Positions 11,922 to 30,553 of a stretch of 64,000 bases of DNA are shown here, piece after piece. Source of the stretch: a phage; sequence record PZ445428.1, one strand, 5' to 3'. Numbering within the stretch: position 1 is the first letter of the stretch; each line of letters begins with the position of its first letter. Both the position numbers and the translations under genes were made by a program. The notes under the pieces were generated by a model. It was not told where the DNA came from. It did no database searches and saw nothing but the letters and a program-made list of their open reading frames with translations.

Positions 11922-12437
11922 ATGGCTAAGCAGAAAAACGCAAAAACTCAGGCAGCTCCAGCAGTTAAGACTTTCCCGCAGACCGAAGCTAATCGTAAGG
12001 CTCGTCTGGAACGTCATCTGCGTAAGCATCCTGAAGATGTTCAGGCTGCACAAGCTCTGGGTCGTCCGGCTCCTGTTCGTCAGAAACCGAAGGCTAAAAA
12101 CTCAACCCGAGCTGTAGCTAAACAGGTTGTGTTCATCAAAGGTGAAGGCCACAAGTCTGTACCTGTAACCCTGGGCTTCAACGGTGGAGCTGAAATGTTC
12201 TCCCGTAAGGACATGTCCCCGAAAGAGTACGAAAAAGCAGTTAATCAGAAACGTAAGCCAATGGCCGACGTATTCCGTGAAACTCGCGGCCAGTTCGGCT
12301 CTGTTAAACCGAATATCTTCGGTGTAGAGTATAGCCGTGACAACGTTCGCGCTCTGTGCTACGGCATTGGCATCAAGTTCACTGGTGCTTCTGATCGTAA
12401 ATCCGCTAAACCGGCTCGTAAGCGTAAAGCGAAGTAA
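11922..12437 (+). CDS. hypothetical basic protein (171 aa)
   Basis: ORF track; Lys/Arg-rich termini. Confidence 0.55.
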   Translation: MAKQKNAKTQAAPAVKTFPQTEANRKARLERHLRKHPEDVQAAQALGRPAPVRQKPKAKNSTRAVAKQVVFIKGEGHKSVPVTLGFNGGAEMFSRKDMSPKEYEKAVNQKRKPMADVFRETRGQFGSVKPNIFGVEYSRDNVRALCYGIGIKFTGASDRKSAKPARKRKAK

Positions 12438-12443
12438 TGATTG

Positions 12444-12460
12444 ATGGGGCGAAAGCCCCA
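12444..12460 (+). terminator. GNRA-tetraloop hairpin (TGGGGC-GAAA-GCCCCA), putative terminator/processing site
   Basis: Perfect 6-bp stem with GAAA loop right after stop codon; weak U-run. Confidence 0.4.
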
Positions 12461-12495
12461 TATACTAACTCTCTTTCTAACTAAGGATATTTTTT

Positions 12496-12711
12496 ATGTT
12501 CTCTAAGAAACCACGTTCCGTTACTGAAATCGTTGCTTCCTTTACCACAATTACTGACGAACTTCAAGCTCGTATTGATGCTGATCAGAAAACCGCTGCT
12601 GAAATTCAGAAACAGCAGGAAGAACTTGCTCTGAAATTGGCTGAAACCAATAAGAGCGAAAAATCTGCTCAAACTATTAAGGAAAACATCCTTAAACTGC
12701 TGGGTAAGTAA
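12496..12711 (+). CDS. hypothetical protein (71 aa)
   Basis: ORF track. Confidence 0.45.
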   Translation: MFSKKPRSVTEIVASFTTITDELQARIDADQKTAAEIQKQQEELALKLAETNKSEKSAQTIKENILKLLGK

Positions 12712-16835: not shown

Positions 16836-17963
16836 AGTTACATAAATTAGAGAGAACAGCGAGCCGATTACGCTGAGTGCAGAATCCCAACCGGAGCGCA
16901 TTGAATAGAGTCGGTGAGTTGTACTAGGATTCCTGATTAGAGAGGTTCCAGGCACCGCAGGGTTTACTCTGTACCGCTTCCAGCTATCGATATCAGGAAT
17001 GAATAGTGCGCAAAACTCGGGAGCTGTCCCGAAACCTCGTAAACTCTTCTCTCTAATTTAATTAAACGATGGATCTCAGCACGAGCCAGTCACAGTGTGA
17101 AACATGGTGCGTGACCCAGGGGTAGAAGACTAGGAGTTGGCTTGAGAAACCCATGTAACTCCTAACGCTGACCCGTCTAGGTTGCAAATCGAGACATGTG
17201 TATATCACAATGAGGTAAGTGACCATCAAATAGTGGGTAGCGTAATTTTTAGGTGAATGATGGAGGTCTAACGACTGAGGGCATCATCTCGGGATTACCA
17301 GCCACGAAATAGTGGGGTGTCGAACTGACTTATGTAATAACACTGCCGTCCTAGTATAAACGGTAATATCAAGCCGTAACTGGTGGAAGATGTAGGTTCG
17401 AATCCTACGGTCGGTAAGAATTAGATAACTCGGGCTTATACCGGATAAGCATTCGCTGCGGAAGTACATACTATGACGGTTCAGGAGGTACGCCGCCTGA
17501 TCAGTATGAGGTTAGAATCGAAACCGCTAAACCACGAGGAAACCTGACGGCCTCAGCCAAACTCGGAAACTCAGGATCGCTGCTTAGTGCGTGCCCTGTT
17601 TTAACCTAGAGACTAAGCACTCCAGCTTCGCATCGAAAATCGGAGGTGCGATTCTACTAGACCGCGTAACTATGAGAGGGGGAAATGCTCACATGAAACA
17701 TGTGACTAATGGTGCACAATAGAACAGGTAAACGCGATAAGTCCTGTTGAGTAGCAGCAGAAGGCTGGGAGTCATGACCTGAGCCTAACCGAGTTCTCCA
17801 CATAGGGAGGACATAACCACGAAGTCACCTTGACTTAAACTGGAAGATATTGTCTGACGGCAGGGCTGAAGAGCTTAATCTGAGGGGGCTGACCCTACCT
17901 ACCGCCGGGTATCTTTAAGAGCTTTTGAGAGAGTTCTTAAAAATACCTAACAAAATCTATTTT
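16836..17963 (+). ncRNA. candidate large structured non-coding RNA / tRNA-like precursor region
   Basis: 1.1 kb with stops in all plus frames, higher GC than surroundings, promoter upstream, tRNA-like T-arm (GTAGG-TTCGAAT-CCTAC near 17392-17408), canonical tRNA-Arg directly at 3' end. Confidence 0.3.
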
Positions 17964-25990: not shown

Positions 25991-26065
25991 GCACCTTTAG
26001 CTGAGATGGATTAGCGCTTGCCTGAAGAGCTTGAGAGGTTGGATCGTTACCAACGGGGTGCACCA
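25991..26065 (+). tRNA. tRNA candidate (anticodon GAA, Phe?)
   Basis: Perfect acceptor GCACCTT/GGGGTGC and D-arm; anticodon stem imperfect, loop CTGAAGA; atypical T-loop ATCGTTA; CCA. Confidence 0.45.
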
Positions 26066-26404: not shown

Positions 26405-26593
26405 ATGAAAGCACCTAAACCGAAATTAGTTAAGTTCGACTGCTGTGACACTGAAATCTTATTTACTAAGTTTGGTGAATTTAAGATGTGTGAATGTGGA
26501 ACATGTGGTTACGATCATGGTGATGGATATTATTGCAGAACCCTCGGGCCTTCTGAACTAATCCACTTCTCATGGCCGGAAAGTAAAGAATAA
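26405..26593 (+). CDS. small Cys-rich protein (62 aa)
   Basis: ORF track; CCDT...CECGTCGYDHGDGYYC. Confidence 0.45.
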   Translation: MKAPKPKLVKFDCCDTEILFTKFGEFKMCECGTCGYDHGDGYYCRTLGPSELIHFSWPESKE

Positions 26594-26595
26594 TA

Positions 26596-27067: not shown

Positions 27068-27143
27068 ACATCCATAGCTCAATGGTTAGAGCTACCGCCT
27101 CTTAAGCGGAGGGTTCTAGGTTCAAGTCCTAGTGGGTGTACCA
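27068..27143 (+). tRNA. tRNA-Lys (anticodon CTT)
   Basis: Acceptor ACATCCA/TGGGTGT, D-arm GCTC..GAGC, anticodon loop CTCTTAA, T-loop TTCAAGT, CCA. Confidence 0.65.
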
Positions 27144-27149
27144 AATACT

Positions 27150-27237
27150 GGGGTCTTAGCTAATCGGTTAAGCGTCATGGATAGCGGTGAATTCCGGCCT
27201 ATGAAGGGAGTAACACGTAGTCTCCCAGACTCCACCA
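27150..27237 (+). ncRNA. tRNA-like element (88 nt) with canonical acceptor and D-arm but no canonical T-loop
   Basis: GGGGTCT...AGACTCC-A-CCA acceptor pairing; D-arm GCT-AATCGGTTA-AGC; remainder does not fold as standard cloverleaf. Confidence 0.3.
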
Positions 27238-27487
27238 AATTTCAGTGCAGAACACGGAGCTAGCAATTCGGAAGTGCTGACGCGCGATAAGCTGCCTATG
27301 TACTTGCAAAGCGGACGTGTCCTAGACTCGGACTCTTGCACTGAAACCAATTAAACATTCTAGCGTGGTGGAGAGGGGACACCAGCTTGCCGAGGGTAGA
27401 AGCTCGTTCGATTCGAGTGAAAGAATGGTTCTCGTAAATCCGCACAAGTGATAGTAGGTTCAAGTCCTGCCTAGATTGACTTATTAT

Positions 27488-27561
27488 GCGTCCATAGTTA
27501 AAAGGTATAATTTCTGGTTGCCAACCAGATGTTGAGAGTTCGATTCTCTCTGGCCGCACCA
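27488..27561 (+). tRNA. tRNA-Gly (anticodon GCC)
   Basis: Acceptor GCGTCCA/TGGCCGC (one mismatch), anticodon stem TCTGG/CCAGA loop TTGCCAA, T-arm GAGAG-TTCGATT-CTCTC, CCA. Confidence 0.65.
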
Positions 27562-27808
27562 AATTTAGGTTTATGCTTCCTAGAGAACGTACTCCTAAAT
27601 AAACAAGGCGATGAGTTTCCGGCCGGTTCTAGTCGCTGAAAATCCTCCCGACCAGGTAGGTGTAGGTAAACGAAAGTTTACTTATTAAGTAAGTCCGACA
27701 CATCGGCGGGTGTGTTCTAGTATTTAAAGAAGGTCTCGCAAACTTTCTCGCTAGCATGAGTTCATAGCTCGGTGACTTACCTAATAAGTAAATTTATTAA
27801 AAATGTAA

Positions 27809-27837
27809 TTGCTATTTAGCTTAATTCTCTGTATAAT
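27809..27837 (+). promoter_or_regulatory. early promoter cassette (-35 TTGCTA, -10 TATAAT)
   Basis: Hexamers with 17-bp spacer. Confidence 0.6.
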
Positions 27838-27869: not shown

Positions 27870-28028
27870 GTGAAATTAAAAATTGCAGATGTACTTATGT
27901 GTACTTGGGTAATTCCAATCATAATTGTTGGTTTTAACGCAGATATACTTTCCACAGCGTGGAAGATTGTAGGGCTAAGTACAGGGTTCACAATGCTAGG
28001 GTTAAGCATGTTGTGGACGAAAAACTAA
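27870..28028 (+). CDS. small hydrophobic protein (52 aa), GTG start
   Basis: Hand-translated ORF after cassette RBS GAAGGAAAG; below track cutoff. Confidence 0.3.
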   Translation: MKLKIADVLMCTWVIPIIIVGFNADILSTAWKIVGLSTGFTMLGLSMLWTKN

Positions 28029-28910: not shown

Positions 28911-29150
28911 ATTTATATAAATTGATGGGGAGAAATCCTCATCAAAGTTCACTAAGGTATTAGCTCGACCTAGGACTGGCTGCCACCAAGCACGATCCCT
29001 ACGACTCGGGAGAAGTTCTAGATTAGTCCACTAGATTCAGCGGCAACTGAATAGTGTATCGGGTTTGTGAAGAGCGGGTATCCAAGCCTGGCTAATGGCA
29101 CTGGGTATTACGCACACCGAGCTAATAGCCTTAGTAAACTTGAAGAATTT

Positions 29151-29231: not shown

Positions 29232-29307
29232 GGGGTCATAGGTTATTTGGTTAAACTTACTGCCTTGCAAGCAGTAGAACTCAGTTCAATTCTGAGTGAC
29301 TCCACCA
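29232..29307 (+). tRNA. tRNA with TGC anticodon (second Ala-type)
   Basis: Acceptor GGGGTCA/TGACTCC, anticodon stem ACTGC/GCAGT loop CTTGCAA, T-arm CTCAG-TTCAATT-CTGAG, CCA. Confidence 0.6.
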
Positions 29308-30010: not shown

Positions 30011-30016
30011 AATCTT

Positions 30017-30145
30017 GGAATATGCCGGAATTGGTAGACGGGACTGCCGAATAGGTTTACTAGGAACATCCACTCCTAGAAATATACCTTAAAAGCGGTT
30101 GAGTTAAATGGTCTAACTCGTGAAGGTTCAAGTCCTTCTATTCCT
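30017..30145 (+). tRNA. oversized tRNA-Leu(TAA)-like gene (~129 nt) with ~40-nt insertion in anticodon arm; possible intron-containing or disrupted tRNA
   Basis: Acceptor GGAATA/TATTCC, Leu-type D-arm CCG-GAATTGGTAGA-CGG, T-arm GAAGG-TTCAAGT-CCTTC, variable hairpin GAGTTA...TAACTC, anticodon stem ACTGC/GCGGT enclosing CTTAAAA loop plus inserted hairpin CTAGGA...TCCTAG; no CCA. Confidence 0.35.
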
Positions 30146-30395
30146 TGATACATCAATGGCTCAAAGAGTAACGGTGCACCTTTCTAGAGAATTTCCTGGG
30201 CGAGAATCCAGGTGTAATCAACTAGTCGTTAGTGTGATGAGTTTCGGAGAGCCGCCACAATTGAAGATCATTGTCTGTTTGAGTCTACCATTTAGGGTCG
30301 TTACTTGTAGCGCCTATCTGCTAGGTCTAATCACTAGGTAAAGGCATGCAAGCTTCTAGTGTAGAGAGTTCGCTACTCCTCGATGGTTTTCAATT

Positions 30396-30478: not shown

Positions 30479-30553
30479 GCGTCCTTATTTCAACGGAAAG
30501 AATGTAAAGCTACGAACTTTACGATCGGGGTTCGATTCCCTGAGGATGCACCA
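30479..30553 (+). tRNA. tRNA-Arg (anticodon ACG)
   Basis: Acceptor GCGTCCT/AGGATGC, anticodon stem TAAAG/CTTTA loop CTACGAA, T-loop TTCGATT, CCA. Confidence 0.7.

What the first reader, a model, noticed from the sequence alone, without database searches (positions are those of the whole stretch)
27150..27487. ORF-free block of tRNA-like but non-canonical RNA structures between tRNA-Lys and tRNA-Gly
An 88-nt element (27150-27237) has perfect tRNA acceptor pairing, a classic D-arm and 3' CCA but no recognisable T-loop. It is followed by a ~110-nt unit closed by an 8-bp long-range stem (TCAGTGCA near 27242 with TGCACTGA near 27338) ending AACCA, and by two orphan T-arm-like hairpins (GCTCG-TTCGATT-CGAGT near 27393; GTAGG-TTCAAGT-CCTGC near 27454). 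Only antisense spurious ORFs map here. These could be processed small RNAs, tRNA fragments acting as decoys, or decayed tRNA genes.
Basis: seen in the sequence. Interest (0 to 1): 0.5.

Follow-up and report, generated by a model that had tools for sequence, protein, structure and literature searches.

The report
Three tRNA-like RNA genes in a phage
The gap between two tRNA genes of a T5-like phage holds three conserved non-coding RNA genes: one is the long-known but unexplained T5 "RNA2", and one is an unannotated tRNA look-alike that keeps the alanine-charging signals yet has no anticodon and occurs in several unrelated phage families.

Summary
The window is Escherichia phage TrudiGerster (Bas27, T5-like). 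The described structures are real, and the 344-bp Lys–Gly spacer splits into three independently inherited modules.

Module C (27356-27481) is the RNA2 annotated in T5, BF23 and phage 5 as a "tRNA-like stable RNA with unknown functions". Both "orphan" T-arm hairpins belong to it, and its cloverleaf with a ~49-nt insert is supported by covariation.

Module B (27238-27349) is ≥90% identical in 220 phage records and is unannotated. It is closed by a 10-bp stem. It shows no covariation, and its "CCA" end is unique to this phage.

Module A (27150-27237) is the interesting part. It belongs to an unannotated family of 16 copies found here, in Demerecviridae, Schitoviridae, Chaseviridae and a jumbo phage.
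- The stems covary.
- G1-C72, G2-C71, G3·U70, A73-CCA (the bacterial alanine identity set), the D-loop and an 11-nt T-loop (UAACACGUAGU) are essentially invariant.
- The "anticodon" arm is hypervariable and carries no canonical anticodon stem-loop (5-bp stem, 7-nt loop).

These are not decayed tRNA genes. I infer that A is excised like a tRNA, charged by AlaRS, cannot decode, and acts as a tRNA mimic. Its function is untested.

The parts
27068..27143 (+). tRNA-Lys(CTT), upstream boundary of the block (context)
   Evidence: ARAGORN; Rfam 64.8 bits; GenBank bas27_0113
27150..27237 (+). Module A: 88-nt tRNA-Ala-like mimic. Acceptor 27150-27156 / 27227-27233 with G3·U70. D-arm 27159-27173. Variable 'anticodon' arm 27175-27204. 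T-arm 27206-27226. A73-CCA 27234-27237.
   Evidence: Covariance model R1 scores it 94.6 bits. 16 family members score >=64 bits, against <=31 bits for true tRNAs. Covariation. Invariant G1-C72/G2-C71/G3·U70/A73/CCA.
27211..27221 (+). Invariant 11-nt loop TAACACGTAGT that replaces the 7-nt T-loop in module A
   Evidence: Identical in 15 of 16 family members; the one exception has A->G. Only exact copy in the window.
27238..27349 (+). Module B: conserved non-coding unit of about 110 nt, closed by the 10-bp stem 27240-27249 / 27337-27346
   Evidence: 220 phage records at >=90% identity. Present but unannotated in T5 and BF23. Stem. No covariation. 93.8% identical to the BF23 copy, against 86.5% for tRNA-Gly.
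27356..27481 (+). Module C: homologue of T5/BF23 RNA2 ('tRNA-like stable RNA with unknown functions'). Acceptor 27356-27363 / 27471-27478. D-arm 27366-27384. Anticodon-stem equivalent 27386-27389 / 27445-27448. Inner stem 27391-27394 / 27431-27434.
   Evidence: 90.5% identity to BF23 rna2 over its full length. Annotations. 97% of cells paired, 9 pairs compensatory, 0 of 500 shuffles as good.
27402..27418 (+).
   Evidence: Stem changes CTCG/CGAG -> CTTG/CAAG in atrejo and -> ACGG/CCGT in INF11 and My1, with the loop kept.
27454..27470 (+).
   Evidence: Pairs 104-120 and 105-119 of alignment A4 show GC, AU, GU and CG, UA, GC, UG types.
27488..27561 (+). tRNA-Gly(GCC), downstream boundary of the block (context)
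   Evidence: ARAGORN; Rfam 61.8 bits

Best explanation
The spacer holds three separate non-coding RNA genes. They lie in what the promoter/terminator scan suggests is one early tRNA operon of a T5-like phage.

Shown here:
- Each module is inherited independently of the others.
- Modules A and C are under purifying selection for a tRNA-shaped fold.
- Module C is T5 RNA2.
- Module A belongs to a family spread over at least four phage lineages.
- That family keeps the bacterial alanine identity set (G2-C71, G3·U70, A73, plus G1-C72 and an encoded CCA), a tRNA-type D-loop and a fixed 11-nt T-loop.
- Its third arm varies freely and has no canonical anticodon stem-loop.

Inferred for module A:
- Its 12-bp acceptor/T-stem stack and its RCCA end make it a substrate for RNase P and for the host 3'-end trimming enzymes. 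It would therefore be released as an 88-nt stable RNA, like its tRNA neighbours.
- Host alanyl-tRNA synthetase, which reads only the acceptor end, charges it with alanine.
- With no anticodon it cannot decode. It therefore acts in trans as a tRNA mimic.

Speculative: module A most plausibly engages or titrates a host factor that recognises the tRNA acceptor end or elbow. An anti-phage tRNA-targeting nuclease is one candidate.

Module B is probably a further processed structured RNA. RNA2 is a tRNA-shaped RNA whose anticodon loop is replaced by a ~49-nt domain with a second T-loop-like hairpin. Their functions remain unknown.
For: Identity of the window: 100% match to phage TrudiGerster.

Modularity:
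- Relatives carry A+B+C, another cassette +B+C, another cassette +C, or C alone in the same slot.

Module C is RNA2:
- Sequence match to BF23 rna2 and the GenBank annotations.
- Covariation in the D, anticodon-equivalent, inner and T stems.

Module A family:
- The covariance model separates members (64-95 bits) from all true tRNAs (<=31 bits).
- Members occur in these lineages:
  - Epseptimavirus, Tequintavirus, Sugarlandvirus and Myunavirus (all Demerecviridae);
  - Schitoviridae;
  - Chaseviridae (Faunus);
  - the 366-kb phage Hallingskeid.
- The acceptor helix is 100% paired, and 4 of its 7 pairs show compensatory changes, while pairs 1-3 are invariant GC, GC, GU.
- In the window, the GGG/UCC-A set occurs only in module A and the two tRNA-Ala genes.
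- The acceptor stem of tRNA-Ala 29232-29307 matches that of A at 6 of 7 pairs.

Alanine identity: the bacterial set is A73, G2-C71, G3·U70, G4-C69 and G20, with no anticodon element, and minihelices are charged (PMC9976931).

Operon context: the scan found no promoter- or terminator-like site between a 9/12 promoter-like match at 26567-26594 and the strong site at 27809-27837.

Plausibility of a decoy role: defences that cut tRNA acceptor stems, anticodon loops or CCA tails exist, and T5 tRNAs counter some of them (PMC12916289; PMC11464382).

Phage specificity: no true copy was found in one genome each of 185,579 bacterial and archaeal species.
Against: - No expression, processing or charging data for modules A or B were available. 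The 'stable RNA' status applies only to RNA2 in T5, and I know it only from GenBank annotation.
- The changed T-loop may weaken recognition by RNase P, EF-Tu or modification enzymes.
- G20 is absent in most members, and G4-C69 varies.
- The G·U pair could be a relic of descent from a tRNA-Ala gene.
- Folding energies are not better than shuffled sequence for any module.
- Module B shows no covariation at all.
- T5 mutants that have lost large parts of the tRNA region are viable in the laboratory (PMC11464382). Any function is therefore conditional.
- No conserved protein partner lies next to module A.
Confidence: 0.5

Rival explanations
1. The modules act only in cis. They are tRNA-shaped 'punctuation' that guides RNase P and RNase E cleavage of the polycistronic transcript and protects the ends of neighbouring RNAs. 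The released pieces have no function of their own.
For: - The modules sit head to tail with tRNAs in one operon and share CCA-AAU-type junctions.
- In the Pylas-like contig L029, module A lies at the very end of an operon, just before a convergent gene.
- Deletions in the T5 tRNA region are viable.
Against: - A processing signal needs only an acceptor/T-stem stack.
- It does not explain an invariant 11-nt loop, an invariant D-loop and an invariant G3·U70 across phage families while the stems change.
- It also does not explain the spread of A into phages that have no recognisable tRNA genes next to the copy.
Confidence: 0.2
2. They are decaying tRNA pseudogenes left by duplication in the tRNA cluster.
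For: - The acceptor stem of module A is nearly identical to that of the phage tRNA-Ala at 29232-29307.
- tRNA finders reject all three units.
Against: - Compensatory changes keep the helices intact: 93% paired in A and 97% paired in RNA2.
- Non-tRNA loops are invariant across families.
- Module B is 93.8% conserved between this phage and BF23, against 86.5% for tRNA-Gly.
Confidence: 0.03
3. They are working decoding tRNAs of unusual shape. Module A would be an odd tRNA-Ala. RNA2 would be a tRNA gene interrupted by an intron in the anticodon loop.
For: - Cloverleaf topology, a CCA end and alanine identity in A.
- In RNA2 the ~49-nt insert sits exactly where an anticodon loop would be.
- The My1 copy of A has a 7-nt loop, UUGAAUC.
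Against: - The third arm of A ranges from 18 to 30 nt. Its apical loops are 4 to 11 nt depending on how the stem is drawn, with no shared triplet.
- The RNA2 insert is the most conserved part of that RNA, and the RNA is annotated as a 125-nt mature stable species in T5.
- From established knowledge, no splicing system for such a short insert is known in E. coli.
Confidence: 0.05
4. The block encodes small proteins. Some GenBank records annotate it that way.
For: - ORFs of 26-88 aa overlap the block.
- Relatives carry 'hypothetical protein' CDS features over these positions.
Against: - No ORF is kept across relatives. The module-B ORF has an in-frame TGA in atrejo, and its variable sites do not favour third codon positions in any open frame.
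- RNA-level covariation explains the conservation.
Confidence: 0.02

Closest known systems
Bacteriophage T5 / BF23 / phage 5 RNA2 ('tRNA-like stable RNA with unknown functions'; GenBank AY543070, NC_042564, AJ604531)
   Same: - Module C is this gene. It is 90.5% identical over the whole 125-126 nt.
- It holds the same position, just upstream of tRNA-Gly2 and RNAIV.
- It has the same fold.
   Different: Only small differences. The Epseptimavirus copies have a U·U mismatch at the third acceptor pair and a GC instead of a UA pair in the D-stem.
Other small stable RNAs of T-odd and T-even phage tRNA clusters: T5 RNA1 and RNA3 (tRNA-like); T5 RNAI, RNAIII, RNAIV and RNA2H; T4 rnaC and rnaD (species 1 and 2)
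   Same: - The same kind of object: non-decoding, often CCA-ended or T-arm-bearing RNAs.
- They are embedded in phage tRNA operons, and their function has been unknown for decades.
   Different: - Modules A and B show no sequence similarity to any of them.
- Model R1 scores T4 rnaC at 5.9 bits.
- None of the T5 or BF23 RNAs I checked has the GGG/UCC-ACCA alanine set or the 11-nt loop.
tRNA-Ala and the alanine minihelix substrates of AlaRS
   Same: - G1-C72, G2-C71, G3·U70, A73 and CCA.
- The acceptor stem is almost the same as that of the phage's own tRNA-Ala (PMC9976931).
   Different: - No canonical anticodon stem-loop and no UGC anticodon.
- The T-loop is 11 nt and not TΨC-like.
- The variable region is 0-1 nt.
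- It scores below threshold with tRNA models.
tRNA-like domain of tmRNA
   Same: An alanine-accepting tRNA mimic with G3·U70 and no anticodon (established knowledge).
   Different: - Module A has no mRNA-like domain, tag reading frame or pseudoknots.
- It keeps a D-stem and a third arm where SmpB would sit.
- ARAGORN finds no tmRNA.
Aminoacylatable 3' tRNA-like structures of plant RNA viruses (TYMV, BMV, TMV)
   Same: Viral RNAs that mimic the tRNA acceptor end, carry synthetase identity elements and do not decode (established knowledge; PMC5723415 is listed but I did not read it).
   Different: - Those are cis elements at genome ends, built with pseudoknots, in eukaryotic RNA viruses.
- Module A is a free-standing gene in dsDNA phages with an ordinary acceptor helix.

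Membership tests
Canonical tRNA (Rfam RF00005 / ARAGORN) | 7-bp acceptor stem, discriminator base and CCA end | tested here: met
   Module A has GGGGTCT/AGACTCC followed by ACCA. RNA2 has a 7-8-bp stem but an ACT tail.
Canonical tRNA (Rfam RF00005 / ARAGORN) | 5-bp anticodon stem with a 7-nt loop carrying an anticodon | tested here: not met
   The third arm of A is 30 nt here and 18-30 nt in relatives, with apical loops of 4-11 nt and no shared triplet. RNA2 has a ~49-nt insert at this position.
Canonical tRNA (Rfam RF00005 / ARAGORN) | 7-nt T-loop (TΨCRANY) and detection by tRNA models | tested here: not met
   Module A has an 11-nt loop, TAACACGTAGT. There is no ARAGORN or Rfam hit in 27144-27487, even at E<=10. 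RNA2 does have a canonical T-loop, but it is still not called.
AlaRS substrates (alanine identity) | G3·U70 wobble pair | tested here: met
   Present in 16 of 16 family members from at least 10 lineages.
AlaRS substrates (alanine identity) | A73 and G2-C71; minor elements G4-C69 and G20 | tested here: met
   A73 and G2-C71 are invariant. G4-C69 is present in the window copy but varies in the family. G20 occurs only in My1 and Hallingskeid. The identity set is taken from PMC9976931.
AlaRS substrates (alanine identity) | Actual aminoacylation with alanine | not testable with these tools
   Needs an in vitro charging assay or in vivo charge analysis.
T5 RNA2 family | Sequence homology over the full length to the annotated rna2 | tested here: met
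   BLAST: BF23 rna2 positions 1-125 align to window 27356-27481 at 90.5% identity, E = 3e-45. 418 phage records cover at least 80% of the query.
T5 RNA2 family | Conserved position in the tRNA operon (upstream of tRNA-Gly2 and RNAIV) | tested here: met
T5 RNA2 family | Accumulates as a stable RNA in infected cells | not testable with these tools
   This rests on the depositors' annotation for T5, BF23 and phage 5. I could not retrieve the primary paper.
tmRNA | tRNA-like domain plus mRNA-like tag reading frame and pseudoknots | tested here: not met
   ARAGORN reports no tmRNA. Rfam finds none. Module A is a closed 88-nt cloverleaf.
T4 species 1 / species 2 RNAs (rnaC, rnaD) | Sequence or model similarity | tested here: not met
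   Model R1 scores rnaC at 5.9 bits, E = 1.8, and gives no hit for rnaD.
tRNA pseudogene | No selective constraint on the fold | tested here: not met
   Compensatory changes in 11 pairs of A and 9 pairs of RNA2. 0 of 500 shuffles reach the observed values.

The most novel reading that the evidence does not exclude
Module A is the first recognised member of a horizontally mobile class of phage 'alanine tRNA mimics'. These would be free-standing RNAs that are charged by host AlaRS and cannot decode. Their fixed, non-tRNA elbow (the 11-nt T-loop together with the D-loop) would let them bind, or evade, a specific host tRNA-recognising factor. One possibility is that they act as bait for an anti-phage tRNA nuclease or a CCA/acceptor-end toxin. 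Another is that they donate alanine to a non-ribosomal reaction. Either role would explain why unrelated phages of Klebsiella, Escherichia, Salmonella, Erwinia and Pectobacterium all acquired the element.
Probability: 0.25. Interest if true: 0.8.

Novelty: new variant of a known kind. Interest (0 to 1): 0.55.

Why it matters
T5 and T4 have been known for decades to make small, tRNA-like stable RNAs, and nobody knows what they do.

This analysis has two parts.
- The ordinary part: one third of the block is the already annotated RNA2.
- The new part: another third is an unannotated family that crosses phage family boundaries and carries a precise, experimentally checkable signature, the full acceptor-end identity set for alanyl-tRNA synthetase on a molecule with no anticodon.

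That turns "function unknown" into a simple bench question: is it charged with alanine, and what happens when G3·U70 or the 11-nt loop is mutated? The question fits current work showing that phage tRNA genes are weapons against tRNA-cleaving defence systems.

There is also a practical gain. Several GenBank records annotate "hypothetical proteins" over these RNA genes.

Tried and rejected
- Rfam at gathering threshold and at E<=10 gave nothing in 27144-27487 except the flanking tRNAs. ARAGORN gave nothing.
- Single-sequence folding energies versus shuffles were not significant for A, B or C on either strand.
- I tested whether A or B are paralogues of the named BF23 RNAs (RNA1, RNA3, RNAI, RNAIII, RNAIV, RNA2H). 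They are not.
- T4 rnaC and rnaD are not related to A.
- Module B:
  - RNAalifold gave a cloverleaf-like fold but zero compensatory pairs.
  - Variable sites are enriched in predicted loops (Fisher p ≈ 0.001). That test is circular, because the fold was derived from the same alignment, so I do not rely on it.
  - Reading frames were examined and rejected as coding.
- I considered a 4-bp D-loop/T-loop pairing in A (GUUA with UAAC). The My1 and Hallingskeid D-loop variant (GGGUAA) breaks it without any compensating change.
- I considered alternative pairing of the RNA2 5' end with the internal AGAATG. It is not conserved in INF11 or My1.
- The complementarity between the 3' end of A and the RNA2 D-arm is not conserved in Tequintavirus.
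- Pattern scans produced chance hits, all discarded:
  - archaeal 16S rRNA;
  - two bacterial MAG sites at 17-19 bits;
  - loci L015, L017, L020, L081 and L082.
- Literature searches for the primary T5 RNA2 papers, or for any description of an alanine-type phage tRNA mimic, found nothing in the held library. A 2023 catalogue of 10,006 candidate viral structured RNAs (PMC10690425) might contain module A. I could not check this.

Full report
**Source and setting.** The window matches Escherichia phage TrudiGerster (Bas27, MZ501108; Demerecviridae, Epseptimavirus) at 100% identity. The finding lies in the early tRNA region. ARAGORN and Rfam find 29 tRNA genes each in the window. tRNA-Lys(CTT) ends at 27143 and tRNA-Gly(GCC) starts at 27488. 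Neither tool reports anything between them, even with Rfam relaxed to E<=10. The consensus scan finds no promoter- or terminator-like site inside the block. The nearest candidates are a 9/12 promoter-like match at 26567-26594 upstream and a strong TTGCTA-17-TATAAT site at 27809-27837 downstream. My reading that the downstream site corresponds to the T5/BF23 promoter P13a rests only on its position just after the RNAIV homologue. The block therefore looks co-transcribed with the flanking tRNAs.

**Check of the observation.** Every described feature is present.
- The long-range stem of the second unit is 10 bp: 27240-27249 with 27337-27346.
- The two T-arm-like hairpins lie at 27402-27418 and 27454-27470.
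- Short ORFs of 20-88 aa occur on both strands.
- Minimum-free-energy folding does not beat shuffled sequence for any unit (z from -1.6 to +0.2). The case for function rests on comparison with relatives.

**The spacer is modular.** Related T5-like phages carry different combinations in the same slot.
- A+B+C: TrudiGerster, SB9, KKP 3953.
- A different ~55-nt unit +B+C: atrejo.
- A different ~75-nt unit +C: SuperGirl, GreteKellenberger.
- C alone: STG2.
- An ORF +B+C: T5, BF23.

BLAST finds module C in about 420 records, module B in 220 and module A in about 105.

**Module C is T5 RNA2.**
- The BF23, phage 5 and T5 records deposited by the Ksenzenko laboratory annotate the homologous 125 nt as "rna2 – tRNA-like (stable) RNA with unknown functions".
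- BF23 rna2 aligns to window 27356-27481 at 90.5% identity over its whole length.
- I aligned 19 distinct variants, including the divergent copies of Pectobacterium phage My1 and Salmonella phage INF11.
- The structure is a cloverleaf with these parts:
  - an acceptor stem;
  - a 5-bp D-stem;
  - a 4-bp stem in the anticodon-stem position;
  - a 5-nt variable region;
  - a canonical T-arm.
- The anticodon loop is replaced by a ~49-nt domain. That domain holds an inner CGAG/CTCG stem and a second T-loop-like hairpin.
- In this alignment 97% of cells pair and nine pairs show compensatory changes. No shuffle out of 500 reaches the observed values, and slid controls fall to 30-42% paired.
- Both "orphan" hairpins therefore belong to one known RNA.
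- The 3' tail after the acceptor stem is ACT, ACA or ACC, and GCCA in INF11. A CCA end is usually not encoded.

**Module B.**
- All 14 distinct variants collected are 112-113 nt and 92-100% identical to the window copy.
- The element is present but unannotated in T5 and BF23, between ORF trn2.10 and rna2.
- The window and BF23 copies are 93.8% identical. RNA2 is 90.5% and tRNA-Gly 86.5% identical between the same two phages.
- The 10-11-bp closing stem is the only robust structural feature.
- RNAalifold proposes three inner arms, a cloverleaf-like topology, but no pair shows a compensatory change.
Every other variant reads AAACA or AAATA.
- No reading frame is conserved. The + strand ORF acquires a TGA in atrejo.
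- B is therefore a constrained non-coding element whose nature is unresolved.

**Module A is a distinct and widespread family.**
- Blastn found copies in Klebsiella T5-like phages (Sugarlandvirus) at 85-90% identity, and a partial match in Salmonella phage 5.
- Pattern scans of IMG/VR and of metagenomes added further copies.
- Further blastn and model searches added others. The full set is:
  - Erwinia phage Faunus (Chaseviridae);
  - a Pylas-like contig identical to Klebsiella phage MY01, an N4-like (Schitoviridae-type) phage;
  - Klebsiella phages K60PH164C1 (Schitoviridae) and phi1_146050;
  - Pectobacterium phage My1 (Myunavirus);
  - the 366-kb Erwinia phage Hallingskeid.
- A covariance model built from 13 copies scores all 16 distinct members at 64-95 bits. 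The best true tRNAs score at most 31 bits, and the top ones are phage tRNA-Ala genes.
- Phage Pylas itself lacks the element. Its relative L029 carries it, together with a 67-aa ORF, at the end of an operon. This pattern fits gain and loss as a cassette.
- An exact-pattern scan of one genome for each of 185,579 bacterial and archaeal species gave only two chance hits, at 17-19 bits.
- In the 40 GenBank records listed, the position is either unannotated or covered by a "hypothetical protein".

**Anatomy of module A**.
- Acceptor helix:
  - It is 7 bp, or 8 bp in three lineages.
  - All cells pair, and pairs 4-7 show up to four different pair types.
  - Pairs 1-3 are invariant G-C, G-C, G·U.
  - They are followed by invariant A73-C-C-A.
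- D-arm: it has the tRNA hallmarks (pyrimidine 8, A9, A14, G18G19, A21). The sequence AGCNAANCGG(U/G)UAAGC is nearly fixed.
- T-stem: it covaries (GGGAG/CTCCC, GTGGG/CCCAC, TCGGG/CCCGA, GGAGG/CCTCC), while its 11-nt loop UAACACGUAGU is fixed. One copy has a single A>G change.
- Third arm: it cannot be aligned between lineages. It is 18-30 nt long, with apical loops GAAU, UGAAUU, AGUAGU, UACUUC and others. Only My1 has a 7-nt loop, and that sits on a 7-bp stem.
- Overall, 93% of cells pair and 11 of 19 pairs show compensatory changes. None of 500 shuffles reaches this, and slid controls give about 50% paired.

**Meaning of the invariant acceptor end.**
- According to the identity compilation of Giegé and Eriani (PMC9976931), bacterial alanine identity consists of A73, G2-C71, G3·U70, G4-C69 and G20. 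It has no anticodon contribution, and acceptor minihelices are charged (Francklyn and Schimmel 1989, as cited there).
- Among the window's 29 tRNAs, the G1-C72/G2-C71/G3·U70/A73 combination occurs only in the two tRNA-Ala genes.
- The acceptor stem of tRNA-Ala at 29232-29307 (GGGGTCA/TGACTCC) differs from that of A (GGGGTCT/AGACTCC) at a single pair.
- Module A therefore looks like a descendant of a phage tRNA-Ala. It has kept what AlaRS, RNase P and the CCA-recognising enzymes read, lost the anticodon, and acquired a new fixed elbow.

**Mechanism: what is shown and what is inferred.**
- Shown:
  - three independently inherited conserved modules;
  - tRNA-like folds for A and C, maintained by selection;
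  - alanine identity elements and the absence of a canonical anticodon stem-loop in A;
  - location inside a tRNA operon;
  - distribution of A across unrelated phages of Enterobacterales.
- Inferred:
  - release by RNase P and 3' trimming;
  - charging by AlaRS;
  - inability to decode.
- Speculative: a trans-acting role as a mimic or decoy for a host factor that recognises tRNA acceptor ends or elbows.

The speculative step has some context. Defence systems that nick acceptor stems (retron Eco2), cut anticodon loops or stems (PARIS, Cas13), or clip CCA tails (HEPN-MNT) are documented, and T5 tRNAs neutralise some of them (PMC12916289; PMC11464382; PMC10644984). Viable T5 deletion mutants of the tRNA region show that any role is conditional.

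**Comparison with what is known.**
- The closest class is the set of non-decoding stable RNAs in phage tRNA clusters: T5 RNA1, RNA2 and RNA3, and T4 species 1 and 2.
- Module C is a member of that class.
- Modules A and B are not homologous to any named member.
- Functionally, the nearest analogues of A are the tRNA-like domain of tmRNA and the aminoacylatable tRNA-like ends of plant RNA viruses. It fails the defining features of both.

**Verdict.** The "decayed genes" reading is wrong. One third of the block is already known. The first 88 nt reveal an unannotated, cross-family phage tRNA mimic with a sharp, testable biochemical prediction.

Noticed in passing
window 27562-27837: Downstream of tRNA-Gly lies a further ORF-free stretch. 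27562-27693 is conserved with BF23 and phage 5 but annotated nowhere. It is followed by a partial homologue of 'RNAIV' (27694-27745, 83% to BF23) and a strong promoter-like site at 27809-27837, which by position may correspond to P13a. A 52-aa ORF at 27870-28028 follows; it is hydrophobic and lies where T5 annotates T5.066, a small protein with two transmembrane domains.
   Followed up: partly
window 30479-30553: The phage tRNA-Arg(ACG) has the acceptor stem GCGTCCT/AGGATGC. This gives a G3·U70 wobble pair plus A73, with C2-G71. G3·U70 is the major alanine determinant, so this tRNA might be prone to mischarging unless another feature blocks AlaRS.
   Followed up: no
L004 515-591, L005 445-521, L010 689-765 (relatives): A different conserved non-coding unit of about 75 nt (AACATCAGAGCAGCGTGATGTACTGC...GGAGCAGGCA) occupies the slot of B in SuperGirl and GreteKellenberger. 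It follows module A in Klebsiella Sugarlandvirus phages. In SuperGirl and GreteKellenberger it is annotated as part of a 56-aa CDS that overlaps tRNA-Lys and RNA2, which is probably a spurious call.
   Followed up: partly
L007 434-500 and L068 (atrejo, HildyBeyeler): Another small unit (ATAGAGTAAAGGCTACAGTAGGTGCACCCTTACGGACTGCTACACCGGACTCT...) replaces module A. It is closed by an ATAGAGT/ACTCTAT-type stem. The Lys-to-RNA2 slot is a hot spot for swapping small RNA cassettes, with junctions at CCA-AAU-like sequences.
   Followed up: no
window 27230-27237 and 27366-27373: The 3' end of module A (CTCCACCA) is perfectly complementary to the 5' half of the RNA2 D-arm (TGGTGGAG). The Tequintavirus RNA2 D-arm (TGGTTGAT) does not keep this complementarity, so it is probably chance.
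   Followed up: partly
L018 about 12400-12535 and L069 1282-1364, 3096-3278 (Erwinia phage Faunus): Faunus carries further tRNA-like units. Two stretches just upstream of its module-A copy end in CCA and have T-arm-like hairpins. Other stretches elsewhere in the locus score weakly with the tRNA-shaped model. ARAGORN finds no tRNA in that locus, and Rfam gives only one weak tRNA hit at 31 bits.
   Followed up: no
window 28958-29070 and 30014-30157: Homologues of two other T5/BF23 'stable RNAs with unknown functions' are present and unannotated in the TrudiGerster record: RNA2H (94.7% identity) and the tRNA-like RNA1 (96.5%).
   Followed up: no
window 25991-26062: Rfam calls a tRNA here at 33.4 bits, and GenBank annotates it as tRNA-Phe. 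ARAGORN misses it. Conversely, ARAGORN's tRNA-Ser(ACT) at 17344-17417 scores only 36 bits in Rfam, and its ARAGORN coordinates do not end in CCA.
   Followed up: no
L030, L031, L033, L034, L037, L039, L040 (metagenome loci): The motif pair used to fish for module A (GGTTAAGC ... GTAACACGTAGT) also occurs in archaeal 16S rRNA genes. These are chance matches and are not related to the phage RNA.
   Followed up: yes
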